This document shows positions 26,008 through 54,418 of a stretch of DNA of 64,000 bases, one piece after another. Every line of letters starts with the position of its first letter. Within the stretch, counting starts at the first letter, position 1. The notes below the pieces were generated by a model that searched no databases, was not told the origin of the DNA, and saw only the letters and a program-made list of their open reading frames with translations. Position numbers and translations under genes: made by a program. The DNA is taken from assembly GCF_988243305.1 (NCBI RefSeq), contig NZ_OZ547136.1. One strand, 5' to 3'.

Positions 26008-28414
26008 GGGAGTTCTACCGCAGGGGCGGGGAACTCCAAGTGATATCCATCATCGCATCCAGTGCGTCCGGTTTATCCCCGCTGACGCGGGGAACTCCGT
26101 GTGGGAACTACGAGTAGGCCGTTTTCTCTCGGTTTATCCCCGCTGGCGCGGGGAACTCCAATATCCGCGCCGTACCCAGCAAATGCTGACGGTTTATCCC
26201 CGCTGGCGCGGGGAACTCTACCGCATATTCACCAAAGTCCTCTATTTTGTCGGTTTATCCCCGCTGACGCGGGGAACTCGAGCGGACGCTCGACGATAAC
26301 ACCGATTTGCAAGGTTTATCCCCGCTGGCGCGGGGAACTCCAATATCCGCGCCGTACCCAGCAAATGCTGACGGTTTATCCCCGCTGGCGCGGGGAACTC
26401 TACCGCATATTCACCAAAGTCCTCTATTTTGTCGGTTTATCCCCGCTGACGCGGGGAACTCGAGCGGACGCTCGACGATAACACCGATTTGCAAGGTTTA
26501 TCCCCGCTGACGCGGGGAACTCCCGTCAGGCCGCGTCAATCGTTTAGCCCACGGCGGTTTATCCCCGCTGACGCGGGGAACTCACATGGAGTACATCATG
26601 AACAGACCACTGACCCGGTTTATCCCCGCTGACGCGGGGAACTCAGATTTTAGATGAGATGAAGTTGAATAGTTTACGGTTTATCCCCGCTGACGCGGGG
26701 AACTCATAAATCATTCTTTTCTTTCATCACCTACGACCGGTTTATCCCCGCTGACGCGGGAAACTCCTGTAGACGTTCTTTGGTAATGGTTTTCATCACG
26801 GTTTATCCCCGCTGACGCGGGGAACTCAATACTACAAACATCAAATGCGTTATTTACTGCGGTTTATCCCCGCTGACGCGGGGAACTCTAAGCCGTGACG
26901 AGGGTCGCCGCTGGCGTCAACGGTTTATCCCCGCTGACGCGGGGAACTCTTACAGATGTAATAAATCACACATGTAATAGCCGGTTTATCCCCGCTGACG
27001 CGGGGAACTCGATCGGGAGGATTTTAAACGCTGGTCAATGGCCGGTTTATCCCCGCTGACGCGGGGAACTCAATTACCGGGTGTCTAGTGCTCATACGCA
27101 GCCCGGTTTATCCCCGCTGACGCGGGGAACTCAATTACTGGGTGTCTCGTGCTCATATGCAGCCCGGTTTATCCCCGCTGACGCGGGGAACTCTTTCCCC
27201 CATGCGGGAAGCGCGTGCGATTTCGCGGTTTATCCCCGCTGACGCGGGGAACTCTTTTAGGTGTGCTGAGATTATTTGTCGCGGCGCGGTTTATCCCCGC
27301 TGACGCGGGGAACTCTTATCAGCAGCCAGACCAGCATTCGGGGAATACGGTTTATCCCCGCTGACGCGGGGAACTCATGATCAAATCAGTGCCGAGCTGG
27401 TGCAGATGCGGTTTATCCCCGCTGACGCGGGGAACTCAAAACAGGTTTGCCTGTCGCCCTCCGGTCCACCGGTTTATCCCCGCTGACGCGGGGAACTCCA
27501 ATCCGTTTATTACTTTATTTCTGCCGCCTTCGGTTTATCCCCGCTGACGCGGGGAACTCCAACGTTTTGGTAATCAACGGAAGGAGCTTCGCGGTTTATC
27601 CCCGCTGACGCGGGGAACTCAATAAATTCAGGAGCGGTAACGATATATTTAACGGTTTATCCCCGCTGACGCGGGGAACTCGTAAAGGCGTTGCCCTGTT
27701 CCGTCGCTGTTGTCGGTTTATCCCCGCTGACGCGGGGAACTCATCCGTTAATTATTGAGAGAGCTATCAGCTATCGGTTTATCCCCGCTGACGCGGGGAA
27801 CTCACCATCAGTCCTTGAGCCGAGAAAATCGCCGCCGGTTTATCCCCGCTGACGCGGGGAACTCAGCTATATACGGGAGCAAGATTATAATATCTGCGGT
27901 TTATCCCCGCTGACGCGGGGAACTCTTTCGCCCAATCTTGCGCGCTCTGACCTATCTGGGTTTATCCCCGCTGACGCGGGGAACTCGTGGGTGGCTGCCG
28001 TCGCGGCTGGTGCTGCGGCGGTTTATCCCCGCTGACGCGGGGAACTCACTGAGTATTTGCCTCAAGTGATGTACTGGTCCGGTTTATCCCCGCTGACGCG
28101 GGGAACTCAATATCGCCGTCAATGCCAATATTTTTCCGCGCGGTTTATCCCCGCTGACGCGGGGAACTCGTGAAAATAGAGGAAGGGCGCATTATTGGCG
28201 GCGGTTTATCCCCGCTGACGCGGGGAACTCGCGTCAGAAGCGATTGAATCAATAGCGGATCACGGTTTATCCCCGCTGACGCGGGGAACTCGTCCATTTT
28301 CCCCCTGGAGGCTGTAATTCACCGCGGTTTATCCCCGCTGACGCGGGGAACTCTTATTCAGCCAACGCGGCGCGGGGCTTGTTTGCGGTTTATCCCCGCT
28401 GACGCGGGGAACTC
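26008..28414 (-). CRISPR. Type I-E CRISPR array: 39 full 29-bp repeats plus one degenerate terminal repeat, 39 spacers (36 unique)
   Basis: Repeat CGGTTTATCCCCGCTG(G/A)CGCGGGGAACTC on the plus strand at about 61-bp period from 26069 to 28386; degenerate repeat 26008-26036 at the iap end; leader at the cas2 end, so the array is transcribed on the minus strand. Confidence 0.97.
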
Positions 28415-32105: not shown

Positions 32106-32588
32106 TTACGCATTTTTGTTTGTGGTCAATACAAAATCTTCCAGAAGTTGCTGGCGTTCGCGCTTTCCCCACCAGGTCAACATCCTGGCCATTAATGGCC
32201 AGTCAAGTACGGGTTCGGCGTGAGTAAGTAATCGACGTAACTGGACCATATCGGCTGTTCTGTCAGCCCGAATTAATTGAAAGATACGGCGCTCGTTAAT
32301 TCTTCCACTATTGGCTAAAGCTCTTCCCAACGAGATACCTGTTGTTTGCTCCGGTTTTTTGTCCTGATGTCGGATGACATTCTTTCCTGCGCTCAGGCAA
32401 AACACCATGCGCAAAAGAGCCTGCTGGTGACGTGGGTTTTCCCAACCAAAAGGTTGCACCAACCGATAAAACGCAGGGATATCGCGTAATTCATCAGGTT
32501 CTGAAACACGTCTAATTTGCGCACATGCTCCATTATCCAGTTGTTGCCAGGCTCGATATAAAGCCATTGCATCAATTTCATCAGCCAT
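32106..32588 (-). CDS. casB: Cascade small subunit Cse2 (CasB)
   Basis: 160-aa ORF MADEIDAMALYRAWQQLDNGACAQIRRVSEPDELRDIPAFYRLVQPFG... Confidence 0.95.
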   Translation of the reverse strand: MADEIDAMALYRAWQQLDNGACAQIRRVSEPDELRDIPAFYRLVQPFGWENPRHQQALLRMVFCLSAGKNVIRHQDKKPEQTTGISLGRALANSGRINERRIFQLIRADRTADMVQLRRLLTHAEPVLDWPLMARMLTWWGKRERQQLLEDFVLTTNKNA

Positions 32589-34089
32589 TTGATGGCCCTC
32601 CTTGCGGTTTTAACTCCCGTAAATGTTTGTATAGCGTGGCGCGGGCAAGCGCTAATGTGCTTATTAATTTAGGATGATGTGCATAGGGAGCTACAGATTG
32701 ATTAAATAGCATTTCACACAATTGATGAAGTTTGTCTCGTAAATCAGCTATTACCTCATCAGCCTGGGAAAAATTAATTTTCGCCAATACATCTGGAATT
32801 AATAATTCACTCTGTCGATAGAAATGCCTTTCTGCAGTCTCATGAACAGAGACTCCGGCCCCTTTGAAGTCTTTATTTTTAAACCCTTCTGCAAAGGTAT
32901 ATAACGCCTTGCGTAAGGCTGTTTTATACCCCAAACCAACAGTCACTATTTCGTTTATAACATTGCCGTATTGTTGCCACCCCTGATTAAACATCAGCAC
33001 ATCATGACGTCGTTCAAGAATAGATGCTTGATTATTACGATATCCCCCCATAATCAATTCAAGAGGACTTTGCGGCGCAATATTTCTGAATTGATTCACA
33101 ACCGCCGCCACGCGATTTCCATTTTCATTTTGAATAATCTTATCTACCACAACTCGGCTGATTTGCGTCCATGATGGTGCGGAGGTGGTGAAAGCAAGAA
33201 ATTTTTCCTCAACCTTCCCTTTCTTGACTGTTACCAGACAAGGGGAATGCGGATGGGGCCATAGTCCATTAACTGTAAAGGTAAATTTTTCCTTAAGAAA
33301 ACCGGTATAACGCAAATTGCTTTCCTGTCCACAGCAAGAACATTTACCAATCCCAATGGGATCGCATAGTTCAATATGCGCTGGTTGCCAGAATAAACCA
33401 CGGACAAACCCAATTGACGAAGCTGGCACAGATTCATTGGGCTTGATAGGCTTAATCCAGGTAGGTTGGTTTTCCGTATGTAATTCATTGGGAAATTGTT
33501 TTTGAAGACGAGGTATTGTGAGGACATTGAGTAATACCGTCGAGCGAAGATCGATCCCACATACGAAGGTGGTTATAGGTGTTCCTCCACGTAAACCGCT
33601 TTTAAAGCCACCACCAAAACCAGGTGCCTGATTCGCCTGGTTGAATAACGCAATCGCAGTGCATCCACCACATAATGCTTCACCCTGCCCCGGTTGATTG
33701 ACAAATGCACAATTCGTCGCGCCGCTTACCCCAGCCAACAGTTTTTCCATTGGAGTCACATCATTTGCTTTGACACCTTTGGTCTGCATAAAGGGATGTT
33801 CTGCGTGATTAAGGTAGAACATATCTATCCACGGCGCGATGAGTTGTTGAAACTCATCTTCAGTGAGCGGATTCATTATGCGATGTCGAAATTCAACGTC
33901 ATCTTTTGCCGGGGCGATAATTTGTCCAATGCAAACCAGCAGTGCTAAAGCGGCCAGTTCCATATCGTCACGGGGCAAACTTAATCGCCACTGATCTCTA
34001 CTGCAGTATAGCGATTGCAGATTTAGGATTTGGACTTTCCCCCCGTTTCGCGGGCGTACAGGGATCCAGTTATCAATAAGCAAATTCAT
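32581..34089 (-). CDS. casA: Cascade large subunit Cse1 (CasA)
   Basis: 502-aa ORF MNLLIDNWIPVRPRNGGKVQILNLQSLYCSRDQWRLSLPRDDMELAA... Confidence 0.95.
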   Translation of the reverse strand: MNLLIDNWIPVRPRNGGKVQILNLQSLYCSRDQWRLSLPRDDMELAALALLVCIGQIIAPAKDDVEFRHRIMNPLTEDEFQQLIAPWIDMFYLNHAEHPFMQTKGVKANDVTPMEKLLAGVSGATNCAFVNQPGQGEALCGGCTAIALFNQANQAPGFGGGFKSGLRGGTPITTFVCGIDLRSTVLLNVLTIPRLQKQFPNELHTENQPTWIKPIKPNESVPASSIGFVRGLFWQPAHIELCDPIGIGKCSCCGQESNLRYTGFLKEKFTFTVNGLWPHPHSPCLVTVKKGKVEEKFLAFTTSAPSWTQISRVVVDKIIQNENGNRVAAVVNQFRNIAPQSPLELIMGGYRNNQASILERRHDVLMFNQGWQQYGNVINEIVTVGLGYKTALRKALYTFAEGFKNKDFKGAGVSVHETAERHFYRQSELLIPDVLAKINFSQADEVIADLRDKLHQLCEMLFNQSVAPYAHHPKLISTLALARATLYKHLRELKPQGGPSNG

Positions 34090-34504
34090 TTGTTCTCCTT
34101 CATATGCTCCGACATTTCTCCTGCATTTCTATACGTCGGAACACTTCCGTTATCGGTAAAAACAAAGAAAAAATACGGCGTAATTAATTCAATAATCACA
34201 TTCACTGCAAAAATATATTCATTGGTTTAATACAATTAACCTATGCATATATTAAGATGTGTTGAATTGTTTAAAGACAATAATGCATGCATTTCAAATC
34301 TGCAAGTTATTCGTTTTATTATCAAAGAAATTTTTTAGTTATAATAATTACCATAAATTTTATTACATAAAATATTCATACTGTGAATATAAAATCTCAT
34401 ACCGGGAAATTAAAAGAAGATGTACATTGTGCACCTTCCCTACTTAAGTAGGGATAAACCGTTATTGGTCTTGTTATCGTCATTGATACCAATCATTCCC
34501 GAAG
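34090..34504 (-). promoter_or_regulatory. AT-rich casA-cas3 intergenic region; expected site of the Cascade operon promoter and divergent antisense promoter
   Basis: 415-bp strongly AT-rich non-coding segment directly upstream of casA; in E. coli type I-E loci this region carries the H-NS-repressed, LeuO-activated promoter (established knowledge; exact -10/-35 elements not pinned down here). Confidence 0.45.
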
Positions 34505-37171
34505 TTATTTGGGATTTGCAGGGATGACTCTGGTCATCCCTTCATCCCGAGTGTAGGTAATAACAATATTATTACCCTGCCAGATCCATCCATCCTGATT
34601 CTGTTTCCCTTCCAGCCAAAGTAACCCATCTTCATCTACTACTTCAGAAAAACTACGTTTCCAGGTGAAGGGTACATTGACGCGATTAAGTGCTAACGCC
34701 TCATACTGCTGTTCATGACTTAGGTCCTCGTAGACCTGGCCATCGAGCAGTTGTTTACCTGAAGACGTTTGTACATAAGGCAATAATGGCAGGCTCATTT
34801 CCCCATCCCTCGTTACCGCAAGAATGGTTTCATCGTTATCCTGCAAGCTATATTCTTCAGCCCACTGCAGAACCTTACGAGCCTTGAACCTTTTTTCACA
34901 CTCGGCGCTTTCAAACTTATCCATGCCTTTGATGACCCATTCTGGCTCATCCATTTCCGCATCATCGTAAATGCTATCCAGCCATTGCCGGTAGGCATCA
35001 GGGAAAAATAAGGATGCTCCATTAAGTTCCTCAATATGTTGCTGCGTCCGCCACATGACTCTAACGTTGCTATAAATATGCTCATGTCGTCCGTAACCTT
35101 CGCCATCAGGCAGCAAAATGGTGGCAAGAGGAATCTCAAAACCAACGGGGCGATATTTACGATGATGGCGATGTAAACGGCCCAATCGTTGGAAAAGCAA
35201 ATCTGCGGGACAATGCTGAGTAATTAACCAATCAAAATCAACGTCGAGTGATTGTTCCACGACCTGTGTGGCAACAAGTATTCTTCCAACATTTCGCTCC
35301 CCATTTTTCCCAAAATTACTAATAACACGATTCTCTTTTTCACGGCGATCGTTCAGCGTAAAGCGCGCATGAAACAAATCTATATCTACTTGCGTGTTAT
35401 TTAGTTCCTTTAACCGTTGGTGGCATAGTTGTGCAACATCAACCAAATTGCAGATAAGACAGACTTGTGCACCCGCATTTGCCGCTGCGATCATTCGCTC
35501 TAACATCGTAAGGTCAGGTAACATGTCAGCTAAATAAATAGGTTCTGGCTGAATCGAAAAGCGGGGCGGGAGTTGTTCTGGATGAGCTAACAGATCAAAA
35601 CGTTGCGCACCATTCACACCTCGCCAGTTAATGAGTGGATATGCGGAGTTATTTTCCTCTGGATCTGTATGCAGACCATAAGTATCCAGAAGTTTCTGTT
35701 TTTGTTTCATTGGTAGAGTTGCGGAAAGAAGAATAACACTCCCCCCCACATCAGCCTGAGCCTTGAGCACAGCCTCCAGCAAGCCGTTCATATACGTGTC
35801 GTAAGCATGAACTTCATCAACAATTAAAACACTTCGACCAATTCCCAAACCACGGATAAAGCGGTGTTTAACTGGCAATACCGATATCAACACCTGATCA
35901 ATCGTGCAAACGCCTATTTGCCCAAGAAACACTTTCTTATTGCTTTGTGACAACCATTGGCAACACTGAACCCACGCTTCTTCTTGCCCCTGCTCAGTAA
36001 ATGCGCGTGATTTTATTGATTGAAAAAGGTGGTTAAAACGTGAATTACCATGAGCAAGAATAAGATTTGGGGAGGTAAATAAACGGCTCGCGTTCGCTTC
36101 CATTCTGCTGAGCATTGCATTTGCAGTAGCTTGTGTAGGGAGGGCAAAAATAACACTATCCGCAAGTTGTTGGTCAATAAGTTTCCAGGCATAGGCCAGC
36201 GCTGTTTCGGTTTTACCTGATCCCGTAGGTGCCTCAATCACCGTCAGCCCGGGAGCTGTAGGAAGAGCATCAACCAACACCTGTAATTGTCTTGGTTGAT
36301 AGCCATTGTCCAGTAAGGCATGTACGCCGTCATAACTACGCTTATTTGATACAAGGCCACTCAACTCAAGTACCCGACACGCATCCTGTTGTCTATCCTG
36401 AAAATATTTTCTTAGCGCTTGTATGCCTGAAGGTGCATCTTCTTTGAATAGAAAGGTATCCGTTGTGGTCCAGGAACCTAACCAGTCAGCAAGCGAGCAA
36501 AAACCTGCTAACAATGATGAACAATCAGGTGGTATATCGTTTATAGATAACCCGGCTGGTGTTAAAAATAATGCTTCGAGTACAGATATCCACTCCTCAC
36601 GAGCCTGTTTATCTTGCGCAGCATAAGATGCCAGAGAAGCTGGCATTTCCCAACGCGACTTATCTTGATCCTGGGAATGTAATATAAAACCATGATGTCC
36701 TGTAACGGCCTCTACCCAAGGAAACCAGGACTCATAAGGATGAGGAGCGGCATCAAAAAAACTGAAAAAATCCCCGGGAGATTGCTCTGAAAGTGAATCC
36801 TGGTTAAACCAATACAGACCGGCTGCACCATGATTAAATTTACGGCACATTTGTGTTGATGGACCATTAAGTGATGGCGTTGCAGGATTTAATTTCAGCC
36901 AACTTTCTGCTGATTTATATTGGAATCGTATATCAAACTTTCCGATATCATGAAGGGCAATGAAAAATAACAGCCAGGCTTTCACCTTCTGTTTTGATAG
37001 CATTTCATTTCGGCAAAAAGCATTTTGTAGTACGACTGATTGATCCCACCAGCAATCTGCAACAGCTGCAACATCCAGGCAATGATAAATCAACAGATGA
37101 ATATCATTTCCTTTCGTCAGGCTTTTTGAGGATTTCCCCCAGTAATGACATATATATTTAAAAGGTTCCAT
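34505..37171 (-). CDS. cas3: CRISPR-associated nuclease/helicase Cas3 (type I-E)
   Basis: 888-aa ORF MEPFKYICHYWGKSSKSLTKGNDIHLLIYHCLDVAAV... with HD domain followed by DEAD/DEAH helicase motifs (APTGSGKT, DEVH). Confidence 0.95.
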   Translation of the reverse strand: MEPFKYICHYWGKSSKSLTKGNDIHLLIYHCLDVAAVADCWWDQSVVLQNAFCRNEMLSKQKVKAWLLFFIALHDIGKFDIRFQYKSAESWLKLNPATPSLNGPSTQMCRKFNHGAAGLYWFNQDSLSEQSPGDFFSFFDAAPHPYESWFPWVEAVTGHHGFILHSQDQDKSRWEMPASLASYAAQDKQAREEWISVLEALFLTPAGLSINDIPPDCSSLLAGFCSLADWLGSWTTTDTFLFKEDAPSGIQALRKYFQDRQQDACRVLELSGLVSNKRSYDGVHALLDNGYQPRQLQVLVDALPTAPGLTVIEAPTGSGKTETALAYAWKLIDQQLADSVIFALPTQATANAMLSRMEANASRLFTSPNLILAHGNSRFNHLFQSIKSRAFTEQGQEEAWVQCCQWLSQSNKKVFLGQIGVCTIDQVLISVLPVKHRFIRGLGIGRSVLIVDEVHAYDTYMNGLLEAVLKAQADVGGSVILLSATLPMKQKQKLLDTYGLHTDPEENNSAYPLINWRGVNGAQRFDLLAHPEQLPPRFSIQPEPIYLADMLPDLTMLERMIAAANAGAQVCLICNLVDVAQLCHQRLKELNNTQVDIDLFHARFTLNDRREKENRVISNFGKNGERNVGRILVATQVVEQSLDVDFDWLITQHCPADLLFQRLGRLHRHHRKYRPVGFEIPLATILLPDGEGYGRHEHIYSNVRVMWRTQQHIEELNGASLFFPDAYRQWLDSIYDDAEMDEPEWVIKGMDKFESAECEKRFKARKVLQWAEEYSLQDNDETILAVTRDGEMSLPLLPYVQTSSGKQLLDGQVYEDLSHEQQYEALALNRVNVPFTWKRSFSEVVDEDGLLWLEGKQNQDGWIWQGNNIVITYTRDEGMTRVIPANPK

Positions 37172-37477
37172 TAATAGCCTCCCTGTTTTTTTAGTATTAT
37201 CGATGATATCAGTGGACTATTTTTCGATGCTGCTCATAAATATCGAATTACAGTGATATACACATGTCTTGCCTCCCTGCAAAGAAGAGACTAACATTCG
37301 AATTGCTTAGGTTCGAACGCTGGCCTCAGGTTGATAGAAATATCGCCTGGGGCTTTTGTCCATCTGGAACCTCGCGAATGCTTAACGCCAGACAGCCTCA
37401 AGCACCCAACGCCATTCTATACCTGATAATTCTTCCAGCGGCGTTCACGTTTAAAATCAGGAATGCTGCTCGCAAAA

Positions 37478-53324: not shown

Positions 53325-53370
53325 GTGAGGAAGGCCGGGCGGGAAACTGCCCGGCCTGAACATACCTGAA

Positions 53371-53508
53371 TGGTTATCCCCGCTGACGTGGGGAACATAA
53401 GTTCGACAACTTAAAAAATGATAACAAGTCCGGTTTATCCCCGCTGATGCAGGGAACATAATAAAAACTTTAACTAGTTCGGTTTATCCCTGTTGTTACA
53501 AGGAATAT
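53371..53508 (-). CRISPR. Degenerate CRISPR remnant (three decayed repeat-like units)
   Basis: TGGTTATCCCCGCTGACGTGGGGAACAT / CGGTTTATCCCCGCTGATGCAGGGAACAT / CGGTTTATCCCTGTTGTTACAAGGAATAT separated by 32-nt and about 20-nt spacers. Confidence 0.7.
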
Positions 53509-53962: not shown

Positions 53963-54418
53963 TGGTTTATCCCCGCTGGCGCGGGGAACTCCGTCAGTGT
54001 GCCAGTTGCTACTGTTTCCCATACGGTTTATCCCCGCTGACGCGGGGAACTCATCAGTGATATCCAACATTGCGGAGCTAAACGCGGTTTATCCCCGCTG
54101 GCGCGGGGAACTCTATAAATGTGCCATATACGGCGTTTGTTGCCTCGGTTTATCCCCGCTGGCGCGGGGAACTCCTCCCGGTGATGCGGGTTATGTGGCC
54201 TGCCGCCGGTTTATCCCCGCTGGCGCGGGGAACTCTTCGCCGCGTCAACAATTCGGACCTGTAAATCCGGTTTATCCCCGCTGGCGCGGGGAACTCATCC
54301 GGCGAACGCGCTACAGAGTACAGTTCACCGGTTTATCCCCGCTGGCGCGGGGAACTCGGAAACCGCCCCGGCGGTGGTTAGCTGTTTGCCGGTTTATCCC
54401 CGCTGGCGCGGGGAACTC
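53963..54418 (-). CRISPR. Second type I-E CRISPR array: 8 repeats, 7 spacers
   Basis: Same 29-bp repeat at 61-bp period (53963, 54024, 54085, 54146, 54207, 54268, 54329, 54390); AT-rich leader-like sequence beginning TCTCTAAA at the high-coordinate end, as in array 1. Confidence 0.93.

What the first reader, a model, noticed from the sequence alone, without database searches (positions are those of the whole stretch)
34440..34470. Sense-orientation CRISPR repeat fragment at the cas3 / casA junction
GGGATAAACCG at 34451-34461 is identical to the last 11 nt of the repeat in its transcribed orientation (including the ATAAACCG crRNA 5'-handle sequence), with 13 of 16 matches when extended. It sits about 45 bp downstream of the cas3 stop, inside the casA promoter region. 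An 11-mer match in a 415-bp region is unlikely by chance but this was found post hoc. It could be a vestigial solitary repeat or coincidence.
Basis: seen in the sequence. Interest (0 to 1): 0.3.

Follow-up and report, generated by a model that had tools for sequence, protein, structure and literature searches.

The report
Regulatory mini-CRISPR between cas3 and casA
The 11-base repeat match is real and is the best-preserved end of a degenerate two-repeat mini-CRISPR, read antisense to the cas genes, that most likely makes a guide RNA steering the cell's own Cascade complex onto the cas promoter to limit its own expression; this kind of element was already described in 2023, including for E. 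coli.

Summary
The window is E. coli with the K-12-type I-E locus on the minus strand. GGGATAAACCG at 34451-34461 is confirmed, but it reads in crRNA sense only on the plus strand, antisense to cas3, casA and the array.

It is neither a lone fragment nor chance. The full 29-nt frame 34433-34461 (PsiR1) matches the repeat 20/29, with all stem changes compensatory and the 8-nt 5' handle intact. A 31-nt pseudo-spacer follows. A second repeat-like hairpin (PsiR2, 34493-34521) comes next, in register, straddling the cas3 stop.

The pseudo-spacer has one AAG-flanked partial target in 64 kb, at 34304-34323. It pairs at positions 1-5, 7-8, 10-11 and 13-17, and overlaps the inferred -35 of the casA promoter.

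The same architecture, with different but matching guide/target pairs, occurs in Marinomonas shanghaiensis and Fibrisoma limi.

This is a CreR / regulatory mini-array (crRNA-like RNA). Shmakov et al. 2023 predicted one for an E. coli I-E locus, and a Salmonella I-E CreR was validated experimentally. It probably corresponds to the "anti-Pcas" transcript of unknown function (2010).

Expression, processing and repression in E. coli are inferred, not shown. Novelty: already known. Interest: modest.

The parts
34433..34461 (+). PsiR1: first degenerate repeat, ACCTT-CCCTAC-TTAA-GTAGGG-ATAAACCG.
   Evidence: 20/29 to the repeat, the best non-array hit on this strand. It folds to the same dot-bracket structure as the true repeat. 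Its stem differs from the repeat by two compensated pairs.
34454..34461 (+). Predicted 8-nt crRNA 5' handle (ATAAACCG). The Cas6e cleavage site is expected between G34453 and A34454.
   Evidence: 8/8 identical to the array repeat handle. The cleavage position is inferred from the established I-E crRNA architecture.
34462..34492 (+). PsiS: 31-nt pseudo-spacer, TTATTGGTCTTGTTATCGTCATTGATACCAA
   Evidence: Lies between the two pseudo-repeats. Among about 18 E. coli copies, only positions 12 and 28 vary.
34493..34521 (+). PsiR2: second, more degenerate repeat, TCATT-CCCGAA-GTTA-TTTGGG-ATTTGCAG. It straddles the cas3 stop codon (34505-34507).
   Evidence: 15/29 to the repeat, with the hairpin in the same register as the repeat. 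It is one of only two such CCC..GGG hairpin loci outside the arrays in the whole window.
34454..34513 (+). Predicted mature 60-nt crRNA-like RNA: 8-nt handle, 31-nt guide, 21-nt 3' hairpin
   Evidence: Inferred from PsiR1 and PsiR2 by analogy with Cas6e processing of I-E repeats. Not demonstrated.
34304..34306 (+). AAG PAM of the predicted target
   Evidence: The only AAG-flanked seed match to PsiS in 64 kb, both strands.
34307..34338 (+). Predicted protospacer; the matched part is 34307-34323 (TTATTcGTtTTaTTATC)
   Evidence: Matches PsiS at positions 1-5, 7-8, 10-11 and 13-17, with mismatches at 6, 9 and 12. Expected chance hits: 4e-6.
34277..34305 (-). Candidate Pcas (casA) core promoter, TTGCAG-17-TATTGT, with TSS about 34272
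   Evidence: TSS triangulated from the LBS I/II positions in PMC12968389 and the palindromes at 34215-34233 and 34372-34390. The hexamers were read from the sequence. Inference.
34316..34345 (+). Candidate anti-Pcas promoter, TTATTA-18-TATAAT, with TSS about 34352. It would drive the mini-array.
   Evidence: Consensus scan. A transcript on this strand of 150-200 nt is reported in the literature (PMC7074321, PMC10011333). The exact TSS was not available to me.
34372..34390 (.). Perfect palindrome ATATTCA-tactg-TGAATAT, the probable LeuO/LrhA site II core
   Evidence: Positions from PMC12968389. A palindromic core is described in PMC6698644.
34520..34539 (+). 8-bp hairpin GGGATGAC-TCTG-GTCATCCC just after PsiR2. 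It is a possible 3' end or structural element of the primary transcript.
   Evidence: Present in the MFE fold of 34352-34560. There is no U-tract, so a terminator role is speculative.
34505..37171 (-). cas3 (888 aa), context
   Evidence: Annotated as cas3 in K-12.
32581..34089 (-). casA/cse1/cas8e (502 aa), context; first gene of the regulated operon
   Evidence: Annotated as casA in K-12.

Best explanation
The 11-mer is the 3' end of PsiR1, the first unit of a degenerate mini-CRISPR (PsiR1, 31-nt PsiS, PsiR2; 34433-34521, + strand). This is a CreR-type crRNA-like regulatory RNA gene.

Proposed mechanism:
1. The divergent anti-Pcas promoter (TSS about 34352) transcribes the mini-array antisense to cas3.
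2. Cas6e (CasE) cuts at the 3' base of each pseudo-repeat hairpin. This releases a ~60-nt RNA with an authentic ATAAACCG 5' handle and a hairpin 3' handle.
3. Cascade loads this RNA.
4. The complex binds the AAG-flanked, partially complementary site at 34304-34323, which overlaps the -35 region of the casA promoter and the -35 of anti-Pcas.
5. Binding lowers Cascade synthesis, which gives negative feedback.
6. Pairing stops after about 17 nt, so the R-loop is incomplete and Cas3 is not licensed. The chromosome is therefore not cut.

Shown here: the sequence anatomy, the hairpin conservation, the unique PAM-flanked target, and the conservation of the architecture with co-varying guide and target in three lineages.

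Inferred: transcription, processing, loading and repression in E. coli.
For: **Anatomy.**
- PsiR1 matches the repeat 20/29 with the handle 8/8.
- PsiR2 lies at crRNA spacing.
- The repeat, PsiR1 and PsiR2 all fold to the identical dot-bracket structure.

**Rarity.** Repeat-type CCC..GGG hairpins outside the arrays occur at only two loci in the window, PsiR1 and PsiR2.

**Stem conservation.** All 54 stem cells pair across 9 repeat and pseudo-repeat units. Four of six pairs show changes on both sides. Slid controls pair at 35-56%.

**Target.**
- There is one AAG-flanked seed match in 128 kb of sequence, and it lies in the same spacer.
- It extends to position 17, and positions 6 and 12, which do not pair in Cascade, are among the mismatches.
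- Expected chance hits are 4e-6.

**Other lineages.**
- Marinomonas shanghaiensis has the same layout on the antisense strand after cas3. Its PsiS is different, and its own AAG target is mismatched only at positions 6 and 12 within positions 1-14. That target's PAM overlaps the -35 of a TTGAAT-16-TATTAT promoter.
- Fibrisoma limi shows the same, with mismatches at 6, 12 and 15.
- The only significant similarity between the E. coli and Marinomonas spacers is GTAGGGATAAACCGT.

**CreR signature.** PsiR1 keeps the 5' handle and PsiR2 keeps the 3'-handle part (18/21 in Marinomonas). This is the signature described for CreR.

**Within E. coli.** There are no polymorphisms in PsiR1, PsiR2, the seed or the PAM, against 18 in the rest of the spacer.

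**Literature.**
- An E. coli I-E mini-array with this geometry is predicted in PMC10120712.
- Salmonella I-E CreR repressed PcasA 8.6-fold through E. coli Cascade.
- AAG plus a seed match suffices for Cascade binding in vivo without interference (PMC5904413).
- A 150-200-nt anti-Pcas RNA exists on this strand.
- The predicted transcript folds with z = -5.6.
Against: - I have no direct evidence for a processed ~60-nt RNA, for Cascade loading, or for repression in E. coli.
- The anti-Pcas TSS I use is a consensus prediction. I could not read Pul et al. 2010.
- The E. coli match has a mismatch at position 9, so uninterrupted pairing after the seed is short.
- Cooper et al. found that partial Cascade sites were mostly transcriptionally inert, and that repression drops with PAM-distal mismatches.
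- PsiS is 31 nt, not 32.
- PsiR2 is only 15/29 to the repeat, and I chose its frame partly by its hairpin.
- Both promoters are H-NS-silenced in laboratory conditions.
- The other E. coli I-E variant (O157:H7 type) and M. rhodophyticola do without such an element.
Confidence: 0.65

Rival explanations
1. It is a decaying, non-functional relic of a former mini-array or array end. It is recognisable as repeat-derived but no longer does anything in E. coli.
For: - PsiR2 is weakly similar to the repeat (15/29).
- The guide/target match has a position-9 mismatch.
- The E. coli I-E system is H-NS-silenced and often decays: casA is a pseudogene in RM9872.
- Related loci lack the element.
- No experiment on the E. 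coli element was found.
Against: - The hairpins are maintained by compensatory changes.
- Polymorphism in PsiR1, PsiR2, the seed and the PAM is zero.
- The architecture and the PAM/target relation are retained with different sequences in Marinomonas and Fibrisoma. Drift would not do that.
Confidence: 0.15
2. The hairpins act mainly in cis on cas3. Either they form the 3'-end or terminator structure of the cas3 mRNA, or the anti-Pcas RNA is an antisense regulator of cas3 termination or translation, as originally suggested for anti-Pcas. On this view the repeat likeness is incidental to that role.
For: - PsiR1 is a perfect palindrome, so it also forms on the cas3 strand 43 nt after the stop. PsiR2 spans the stop codon.
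- The review PMC10011333 reports this suggestion.
- The predicted RNA overlaps the last codons of cas3.
Against: - No U-tract follows either hairpin on the minus strand, and the terminator scan found none.
- An antisense or terminator role explains neither the intact ATAAACCG handle, nor the crRNA-length spacing, nor the AAG-flanked target, nor their co-variation across lineages.
- The two roles are not mutually exclusive.
Confidence: 0.1
3. It is a repeat-mimic decoy (Racr-like) that titrates Cas6e or Cascade without guiding it to any target.
For: Repeat-like hairpins with a correct handle could bind Cas6e. RNA anti-CRISPRs of this type are known in phages (PMC10651486, listed).
Against: - It is chromosomal and sits inside the cas locus, with no phage or plasmid copies.
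- A decoy needs no conserved PAM-flanked target, yet one is present in all three lineages.
Confidence: 0.05
4. It is a chance resemblance.
For: The match was found post hoc in an AT-rich region.
Against: - 20/29 is the best hit in the window.
- The hairpin is in register.
- PsiR2 has a chance probability of about 2e-4.
- The target has a chance expectation of 4e-6.
- The element is conserved in Marinomonas.
Confidence: 0.01

Closest known systems
Regulatory mini-arrays / cr-like RNAs of type I-E loci (Shmakov et al. 2023, PMC10120712, section 22 and Fig. 4B)
   Same: - The location is the same: the long cas3-cas8e spacer.
- It is transcribed opposite to cas3.
- The better-conserved repeat lies next to the seed end, and the distal repeat is degraded.
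- The spacer partially matches the cas8e promoter next to an AAG PAM.
- The paper's E. coli example has its target on the H-NS site just upstream of Pcas and its start region on the LeuO/CRP sites. This fits the coordinates found here.
   Different: - Probably nothing; it is most likely the very same element. I could not see their figure or supplements to compare sequences.
- The preprint text does not mention the anti-Pcas transcript.
- Their I-E example was not tested experimentally; their test was on a type I-F1 system.
CreR (Cas-regulating RNA) of Salmonella enterica I-E (bioRxiv 10.1101/2023.03.10.532045)
   Same: - It has the PsiR1-PsiS-PsiR2 layout.
- PsiR1 keeps the 5' handle and PsiR2 keeps the 3' handle.
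- It has an AAG PAM and a partial match upstream of casA.
- No obvious toxin partner is present.
- It works with E. coli Cascade.
   Different: - The cas gene lineage and the sequence are different.
- The Salmonella guide shares 15 consecutive nt with a site ~140 bp upstream of casA. Here the match is interrupted (1-5, 7-8, 10-11, 13-17) and lies ~215 bp upstream of casA.
- The Salmonella one is validated and this one is not.
CreTA (CreA antitoxin RNA plus CreT toxin) of type I-B/I-F systems
   Same: It is a crRNA-like RNA that directs Cascade to repress a promoter inside the cas locus through partial pairing.
   Different: - No credible toxin gene lies under the targeted promoter in E. coli.
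- The Marinomonas relative has a 38-aa hydrophobic ORF there, which could be such a toxin, but that is untested.
anti-Pcas transcript of E. coli K-12 (Pul et al. 2010, as cited in PMC7074321 and PMC10011333)
   Same: - It is on the same strand and in the same region.
- It is H-NS-repressed.
- It is 150-200 nt long and overlaps the cas3 3' end.
- It is predicted to be highly structured. The 209-nt prediction here folds with z = -5.6.
   Different: It is described as having unknown function. Equating it with the mini-array precursor is my inference. I did not have its mapped start site.

Membership tests
CreR / regulatory mini-array (crRNA-like RNA) | Two repeat-like units flanking a spacer-length sequence in a cas intergenic region | tested here: met
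   PsiR1 34433-34461, PsiS 31 nt, PsiR2 34493-34521.
CreR / regulatory mini-array (crRNA-like RNA) | PsiR1 preserves the 5'-handle nucleotides, and PsiR2 preserves the 3'-handle hairpin | tested here: met
   E. coli: PsiR1 handle 8/8; PsiR2 hairpin in register, 11/21. Marinomonas: handle 7/8 to its own repeat; PsiR2 18/21.
CreR / regulatory mini-array (crRNA-like RNA) | The PsiS seed-proximal part is complementary to a site with the cognate PAM at or next to a cas (or toxin) promoter | tested here: met
   AAG at 34304-34306 followed by a match at positions 1-5, 7-8, 10-11 and 13-17. It is unique in the window, with a chance expectation of 4e-6. It overlaps the inferred -35 of Pcas.
CreR / regulatory mini-array (crRNA-like RNA) | Conservation in related loci, with guide and target changing together | tested here: met
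   Marinomonas shanghaiensis and Fibrisoma limi have different PsiS sequences, each with its own AAG-flanked target.
CreR / regulatory mini-array (crRNA-like RNA) | The mini-array is transcribed | not testable with these tools
   Only indirect evidence: a published anti-Pcas RNA of 150-200 nt on this strand and a TATAAT -10 at 34340-34345.
CreR / regulatory mini-array (crRNA-like RNA) | Cas6-dependent maturation and loading into the effector | not testable with these tools
   Needs small-RNA-seq or RIP with and without casE.
CreR / regulatory mini-array (crRNA-like RNA) | Effector- and guide-dependent repression of the target promoter without cleavage | not testable with these tools
   Needs a reporter with seed mutations and compensatory target mutations. 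Supported by analogy only.
CreTA toxin-antitoxin | A toxin gene or RNA under the promoter repressed by the crRNA-like RNA | tested here: not met
   Only short, unconvincing ORFs lie between Pcas and casA in E. coli. The Marinomonas 38-aa hydrophobic ORF is inconclusive, with no Pfam match.
Solitary repeat unit (SRU) / vestigial single repeat | A single repeat (nearly) identical to the array repeat, with no downstream partner | tested here: not met
   Identity is 20/29, and a second unit is present at crRNA spacing.
Intrinsic terminator of cas3 | A GC-rich hairpin followed by a U-tract on the cas3 strand | tested here: not met
   The terminator scan found none, and no T-run follows either hairpin on the minus strand.
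Rfam RNA families | A match to a curated covariance model | tested here: not met
   Only noise hits with E > 0.8 in 34050-34650.

The most novel reading that the evidence does not exclude
The long-unexplained anti-Pcas RNA of E. coli K-12 (2010) is the precursor of a Cascade-loaded crRNA-like guide. Its single target lies between the two divergent promoters, so one bound Cascade would shut off both the cascade operon and the guide's own promoter, giving an H-NS-gated double negative feedback.

The module may also be an old, co-inherited part of this cas3-cas8e cassette. PsiR1 is more alike between E. coli and Marinomonas (22/29, same stem and handle) than either is to its own array repeat (20/29). 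In Marinomonas the repressed promoter additionally drives a 38-aa hydrophobic peptide, which could make it a type I-E CreTA-like addiction module.
Probability: 0.35. Interest if true: 0.5.

Novelty: already known. Interest (0 to 1): 0.3.

Why it matters
E. coli K-12 is the reference system for type I-E CRISPR. Its cas3-casA spacer has been dissected for H-NS, LeuO, CRP, StpA and LrhA control, yet the antisense anti-Pcas RNA is still listed as having unknown function.

Reading that RNA as a CreR-type guide would add an RNA-based autoregulatory layer to the model system. It would also explain why the locus carries a 415-bp spacer that the other E. coli I-E variant lacks.

It further flags a practical point. 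Commonly used engineered strains replace cas3 and this spacer with a constitutive promoter, which deletes the element.

The idea is not new, because it was predicted in 2023. The value here is confirmation from independent evidence and a sharply defined experiment.

Tried and rejected
- **Rfam scan of 34050-34650:** only noise.
- **Phage, plasmid and IMG/VR searches for copies of the guide** (possible phage 'Cracr' mimics): none found.
- **Metagenome scan with the PsiR1 pattern:** only E. coli alleles, plus one genuine array (L094) with a CCCTAC/GTAGGG repeat. No new lineages.
- **Apparent breakpoint next to PsiR1 in L093:** an Illumina Nextera adapter at a contig end, so an artefact.
- **The other E. 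coli I-E variant (O157:H7):** a 97-bp spacer with no repeat-like unit, so it gives no independent support.
- **Toxin partner in E. coli:** only short, unconvincing ORFs, so a CreTA reading is rejected for E. coli.
- **cas3 terminator reading:** no U-tract, and none called by the scan.
- **Hits L032, L062 and L071 in the hairpin-plus-handle survey:** weak or probably inside coding sequence. I did not pursue them and do not count them as evidence.
- **Papers I could not obtain:** Pul et al. 2010, the published NAR version of Shmakov et al., and their supplements. The anti-Pcas start site, and identity with their Fig. 4B element, therefore rest on text descriptions only.
- **Polymorphism contrast within E. 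coli:** 0 variable sites in the functional parts against 18 elsewhere. This is suggestive, but the sample is too small to be a formal test.

Full report
**Context.** The window is Escherichia coli. The 415-bp region 34090-34504 is 98% identical to K-12 and occurs in 1133 of 5426 complete E. coli genomes. The type I-E locus is on the minus strand:
- cas3 at 34505-37171;
- casA at 32581-34089;
- casB-E, cas1 and cas2 down to about 28520;
- a leader, then a 39-repeat array from 28414 down to 26069.

On the plus strand the array reads CGGTTTATCCCCGCTGACGCGGGGAACTC. The crRNA sense, GAGTTCCCCGCGTCAGCGGGGATAAACCG, is therefore on the minus strand.

**The observation.** GGGATAAACCG is at 34451-34461 on the plus strand. 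The 16-nt extension matches 13/16, and the element lies 43 nt from the cas3 stop. Outside the arrays, the only other repeat 11-mers in the window belong to a degenerate repeat beside CRISPR-II. Two corrections apply:
- The element is in crRNA sense only on the plus strand, so it is inverted relative to the cas genes and the array.
- The similarity does not stop at 11 or 16 nt.

**Anatomy.**
- *PsiR1.* The 29-nt frame 34433-34461, ACCTT-CCCTAC-TTAA-GTAGGG-ATAAACCG, matches the repeat 20/29. This is the best non-array hit on that strand (next best 17). The nine differences are three 5' flank bases, two loop bases and two stem pairs changed on both sides (C-G to U-A, G-C to A-U).
- *PsiS.* A 31-nt sequence follows (34462-34492).
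- *PsiR2.* A second unit lies at 34493-34521, TCATT-CCCGAA-GTTA-TTTGGG-ATTTGCAG. It matches 15/29 and straddles the cas3 stop codon.
- *Folding.* The true repeat, PsiR1 and PsiR2 all fold to the identical structure....(((((((....)))))))........
- *Rarity.* Hairpins of this type (CCC...GGG, 6 bp, 4-nt loop) occur outside the arrays at only two loci in 128 kb of sequence, and those two are PsiR1 and PsiR2. The chance of one falling at crRNA spacing is about 2e-4.
- *Interpretation.* This is a degenerate mini-CRISPR. If processed like a repeat, it would yield a 60-nt RNA (34454-34513) made of an authentic 8-nt 5' handle, a 31-nt guide and a hairpin 3' handle.

**Target.** I scanned both strands of the window for the I-E seed (positions 1-5, 7-8) of PsiS and found 11 non-self hits.
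- Exactly one has the canonical AAG PAM, and it lies in the same intergenic region. The PAM is at 34304-34306 and the protospacer starts at 34307.
- It matches at positions 1-5, 7-8, 10-11 and 13-17.
- Two of its three mismatches are at positions 6 and 12. Every sixth position is flipped out and does not pair in type I effectors, as stated for I-F1 in PMC10120712.
- The expected number of such hits next to an AAG in this spacer is 4e-6, or 7e-5 for the K-12 allele.

**Position relative to promoters.** The LrhA paper gives mutated positions in two near-identical palindromes: LBS II at -116/-114 and -102/-101, and LBS I at +40/+42 and +54/+55 (PMC12968389).
- The spacer holds ATATTCA-N5-TGAATAT at 34372-34390 and ATATTCA-N5-TTAATAC at 34215-34233.
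- Each palindrome independently places the Pcas start at about 34272-34273. This is 5-6 nt downstream of a TATTGT hexamer (34282-34277), which lies 17 nt from TTGCAG (34305-34300).
- On that inference, the PAM is at -32 to -34 and the paired part of the protospacer is at -35 to -51. The target therefore sits on the -35 element.
- On the plus strand, a perfect TATAAT at 34340-34345 predicts a start near 34352, 80 bp from the Pcas start. This is a candidate for the published divergent anti-Pcas promoter.
- Reviews describe anti-Pcas as H-NS-repressed and just downstream of cas3. It gives a 150-200-nt, highly structured RNA that overlaps the cas3 3' end, and its function is unknown (PMC7074321 and PMC10011333).
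- A transcript from 34352 would reach the end of PsiR2 at +170. The 209-nt stretch folds far better than shuffled sequence (z = -5.6), with both pseudo-repeat hairpins intact.
- The predicted protospacer also covers the -35 region of this plus-strand promoter, so one bound Cascade could repress both promoters. This is inference.

**Conservation.**
- *Relatives of K-12-type Cas3.* Close relatives are few among species representatives.
- *Marinomonas shanghaiensis* (Cas3 56% identical):
  - It has, on the antisense strand right after cas3, TTCAT-CCCTAC-CACC-GTAGGG-ATAAACCG, then a 33-nt PsiS (TCTGTTTTTTAATGAAC...), then CTGTT-CCCCAC-ACCC-GTGGGG-GTAATAGC.
  - Its only AAG-flanked seed hit is in the same spacer (AAG TCTGTaTTTTAtTG), with mismatches at 6 and 12.
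  - That target's PAM overlaps the -35 of a TTGAAT-16-TATTAT promoter.
- *Its array repeat* is GCGTTCCCCACAGCCGTGGGGATTAACCG. PsiR2 keeps the 3'-handle part 18/21 but the 5'-handle part only 2/8. PsiR1 keeps the handle. This is the signature reported for CreR.
- *Conserved island.* PsiR1 of E. coli and of Marinomonas share 22/29, with the same stem and handle. The only significant similarity between the two spacers is GTAGGGATAAACCGT.
- *M. rhodophyticola* has no spacer and no element.
- *Fibrisoma limi* (Cas3 29% identical) has PsiR1 with handle ATGAACCG, a 32-33-nt PsiS and PsiR2. Its single AAG-flanked target is mismatched at 6, 12 and 15, and it lies just upstream of a small HTH_11 gene that precedes casA.
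- *Chance.* The expectation is about 2e-5 in each of these two lineages.
- *Stem pairing.* Across nine repeat and pseudo-repeat units, all 54 stem cells pair and four of six pairs change on both sides. Slid controls pair at 35-56%. Some frames were chosen using the hairpin, which is a caveat.
- *Strand bias.* In the 80 Cas3 loci held, a hairpin-plus-handle motif within 700 nt after cas3 was found six times on the antisense strand and never on the sense strand. Three of the six hits are weak.
- *Within E. coli.* In about 18 usable copies there are 21 variable sites in the spacer. None falls in PsiR1, PsiR2, the seed or the PAM. The only variants in the functional parts are PsiS positions 12 and 28 and target position 17.
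- *The O157:H7-type variant* has a 97-bp spacer and no such element.

**What is known.** The kind of element is established.
- Shmakov et al. (PMC10120712) describe I-E mini-arrays in the long cas3-cas8e spacer. They are transcribed opposite to cas3, and their spacer partially matches the cas8e promoter next to AAG.
- Their E. coli example has its target on the H-NS site just upstream of Pcas, and its start region on the LeuO and CRP sites. This fits the coordinates found here, and the other E. coli variant has no room for such an element. I therefore take it to be the same one, although I could not see their figure or supplements.
- The CreR study showed that a Salmonella I-E CreR, with a 15-nt match and an AAG PAM, represses PcasA 8.6-fold through E. 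coli Cascade. It also showed that crRNA overexpression relieves the repression.
- Cooper et al. showed that AAG plus a seed match is enough for Cascade binding in vivo, without interference or priming. They also found that partial sites are often transcriptionally inert.
- No held paper connects anti-Pcas with the mini-array idea.

**Verdict.** 'Vestigial solitary repeat or coincidence' is not supported.

The best explanation is a CreR-type crRNA-like guide, made from the anti-Pcas transcript, that directs Cascade to the -35 region of Pcas for autorepression without cleavage. My confidence is about 0.65 for function in E. coli and higher for identity as a repeat-derived mini-array.

Rivals:
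- a non-functional relic (0.15);
- a cis or antisense role on cas3 (0.10, not exclusive of the main explanation);
- a decoy (0.05);
- chance (0.01 or less).

It is already known as a prediction, so interest is modest.

What this analysis adds:
- independent statistical and comparative support;
- the placement of the target on the -35 element;
- the link to the 2010 anti-Pcas RNA;
- evidence that the module is inherited with this cas3-cas8e cassette.

Noticed in passing
L002 6856-6972 (= L100 7872-7988), Marinomonas shanghaiensis: A 38-aa hydrophobic ORF (MINKVRGLLKTLNEMSVTGVACMAMLVAILALMVVLTN), preceded by GGAGG, lies between the promoter targeted by the Marinomonas mini-array and casA. The record's gene caller also called it. 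It has no Pfam match. It could be a CreT-like toxin, which would make this a type I-E CreTA module.
   Followed up: partly
L023 7031-7375, Fibrisoma limi: A 114-aa HTH_11 protein gene (E = 8.5e-6) lies between the mini-array target and casA. In this lineage the crRNA-like RNA would control a regulator-casA operon. Here the protospacer is on the cas-sense strand, unlike in E. coli and Marinomonas.
   Followed up: partly
window 53370-53459: A two-unit degenerate mini-array in array orientation. The units are ATGGTTATCCCCGCTGACGTGGGGAACAT (23/29) and CGGTTTATCCCCGCTGATGCAGGGAACAT (25/29), separated by a 32-nt spacer. It lies about 500 bp before the CRISPR-II array (53963-54418).
   Followed up: no
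window 37251-37407 (-): An Rfam sok antitoxin RNA match (RF01794, 104 bits, E = 1e-24) lies between cysH and cas3. In O157:H7 the same position carries an annotated Hok/Gef gene (L101 6575-6727). A hok/sok module or remnant therefore abuts the cas3 promoter region.
   Followed up: partly
L094 (metagenome contig Ga0182739_1109428): A genuine I-E array whose repeat, CTGTTCCCTACATGGGTAGGGATAAACCG, has the same CCCTAC/GTAGGG stem as E. coli PsiR1 (23/29). That is closer to PsiR1 than the E. coli repeat is. It hints that PsiR1 descends from an ancestral repeat of the lineage that donated this cas cassette.
   Followed up: no
L093 about 1-230 (in PsiR1-sense orientation): Illumina Nextera/P7 adapter sequence is fused to E. 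coli sequence 14 nt upstream of PsiR1. This is an assembly artefact in a public metagenome contig.
   Followed up: yes
window 34277-34282; L082 and L087: Strain RM9872, in which casA is annotated as a truncated pseudogene, and one metagenome copy carry two adjacent substitutions (34278, 34279) inside the inferred Pcas -10 hexamer (TATTGT to TATCTT).
   Followed up: no
window 26069-28414: The CRISPR-I array has 39 repeats and blocks of repeated period (182-nt TRF rows near 26069-26523), which suggests duplicated spacer-repeat units at the trailer end. Repeat variants GCTGGCGC and GCTGACGC are mixed there.
   Followed up: no
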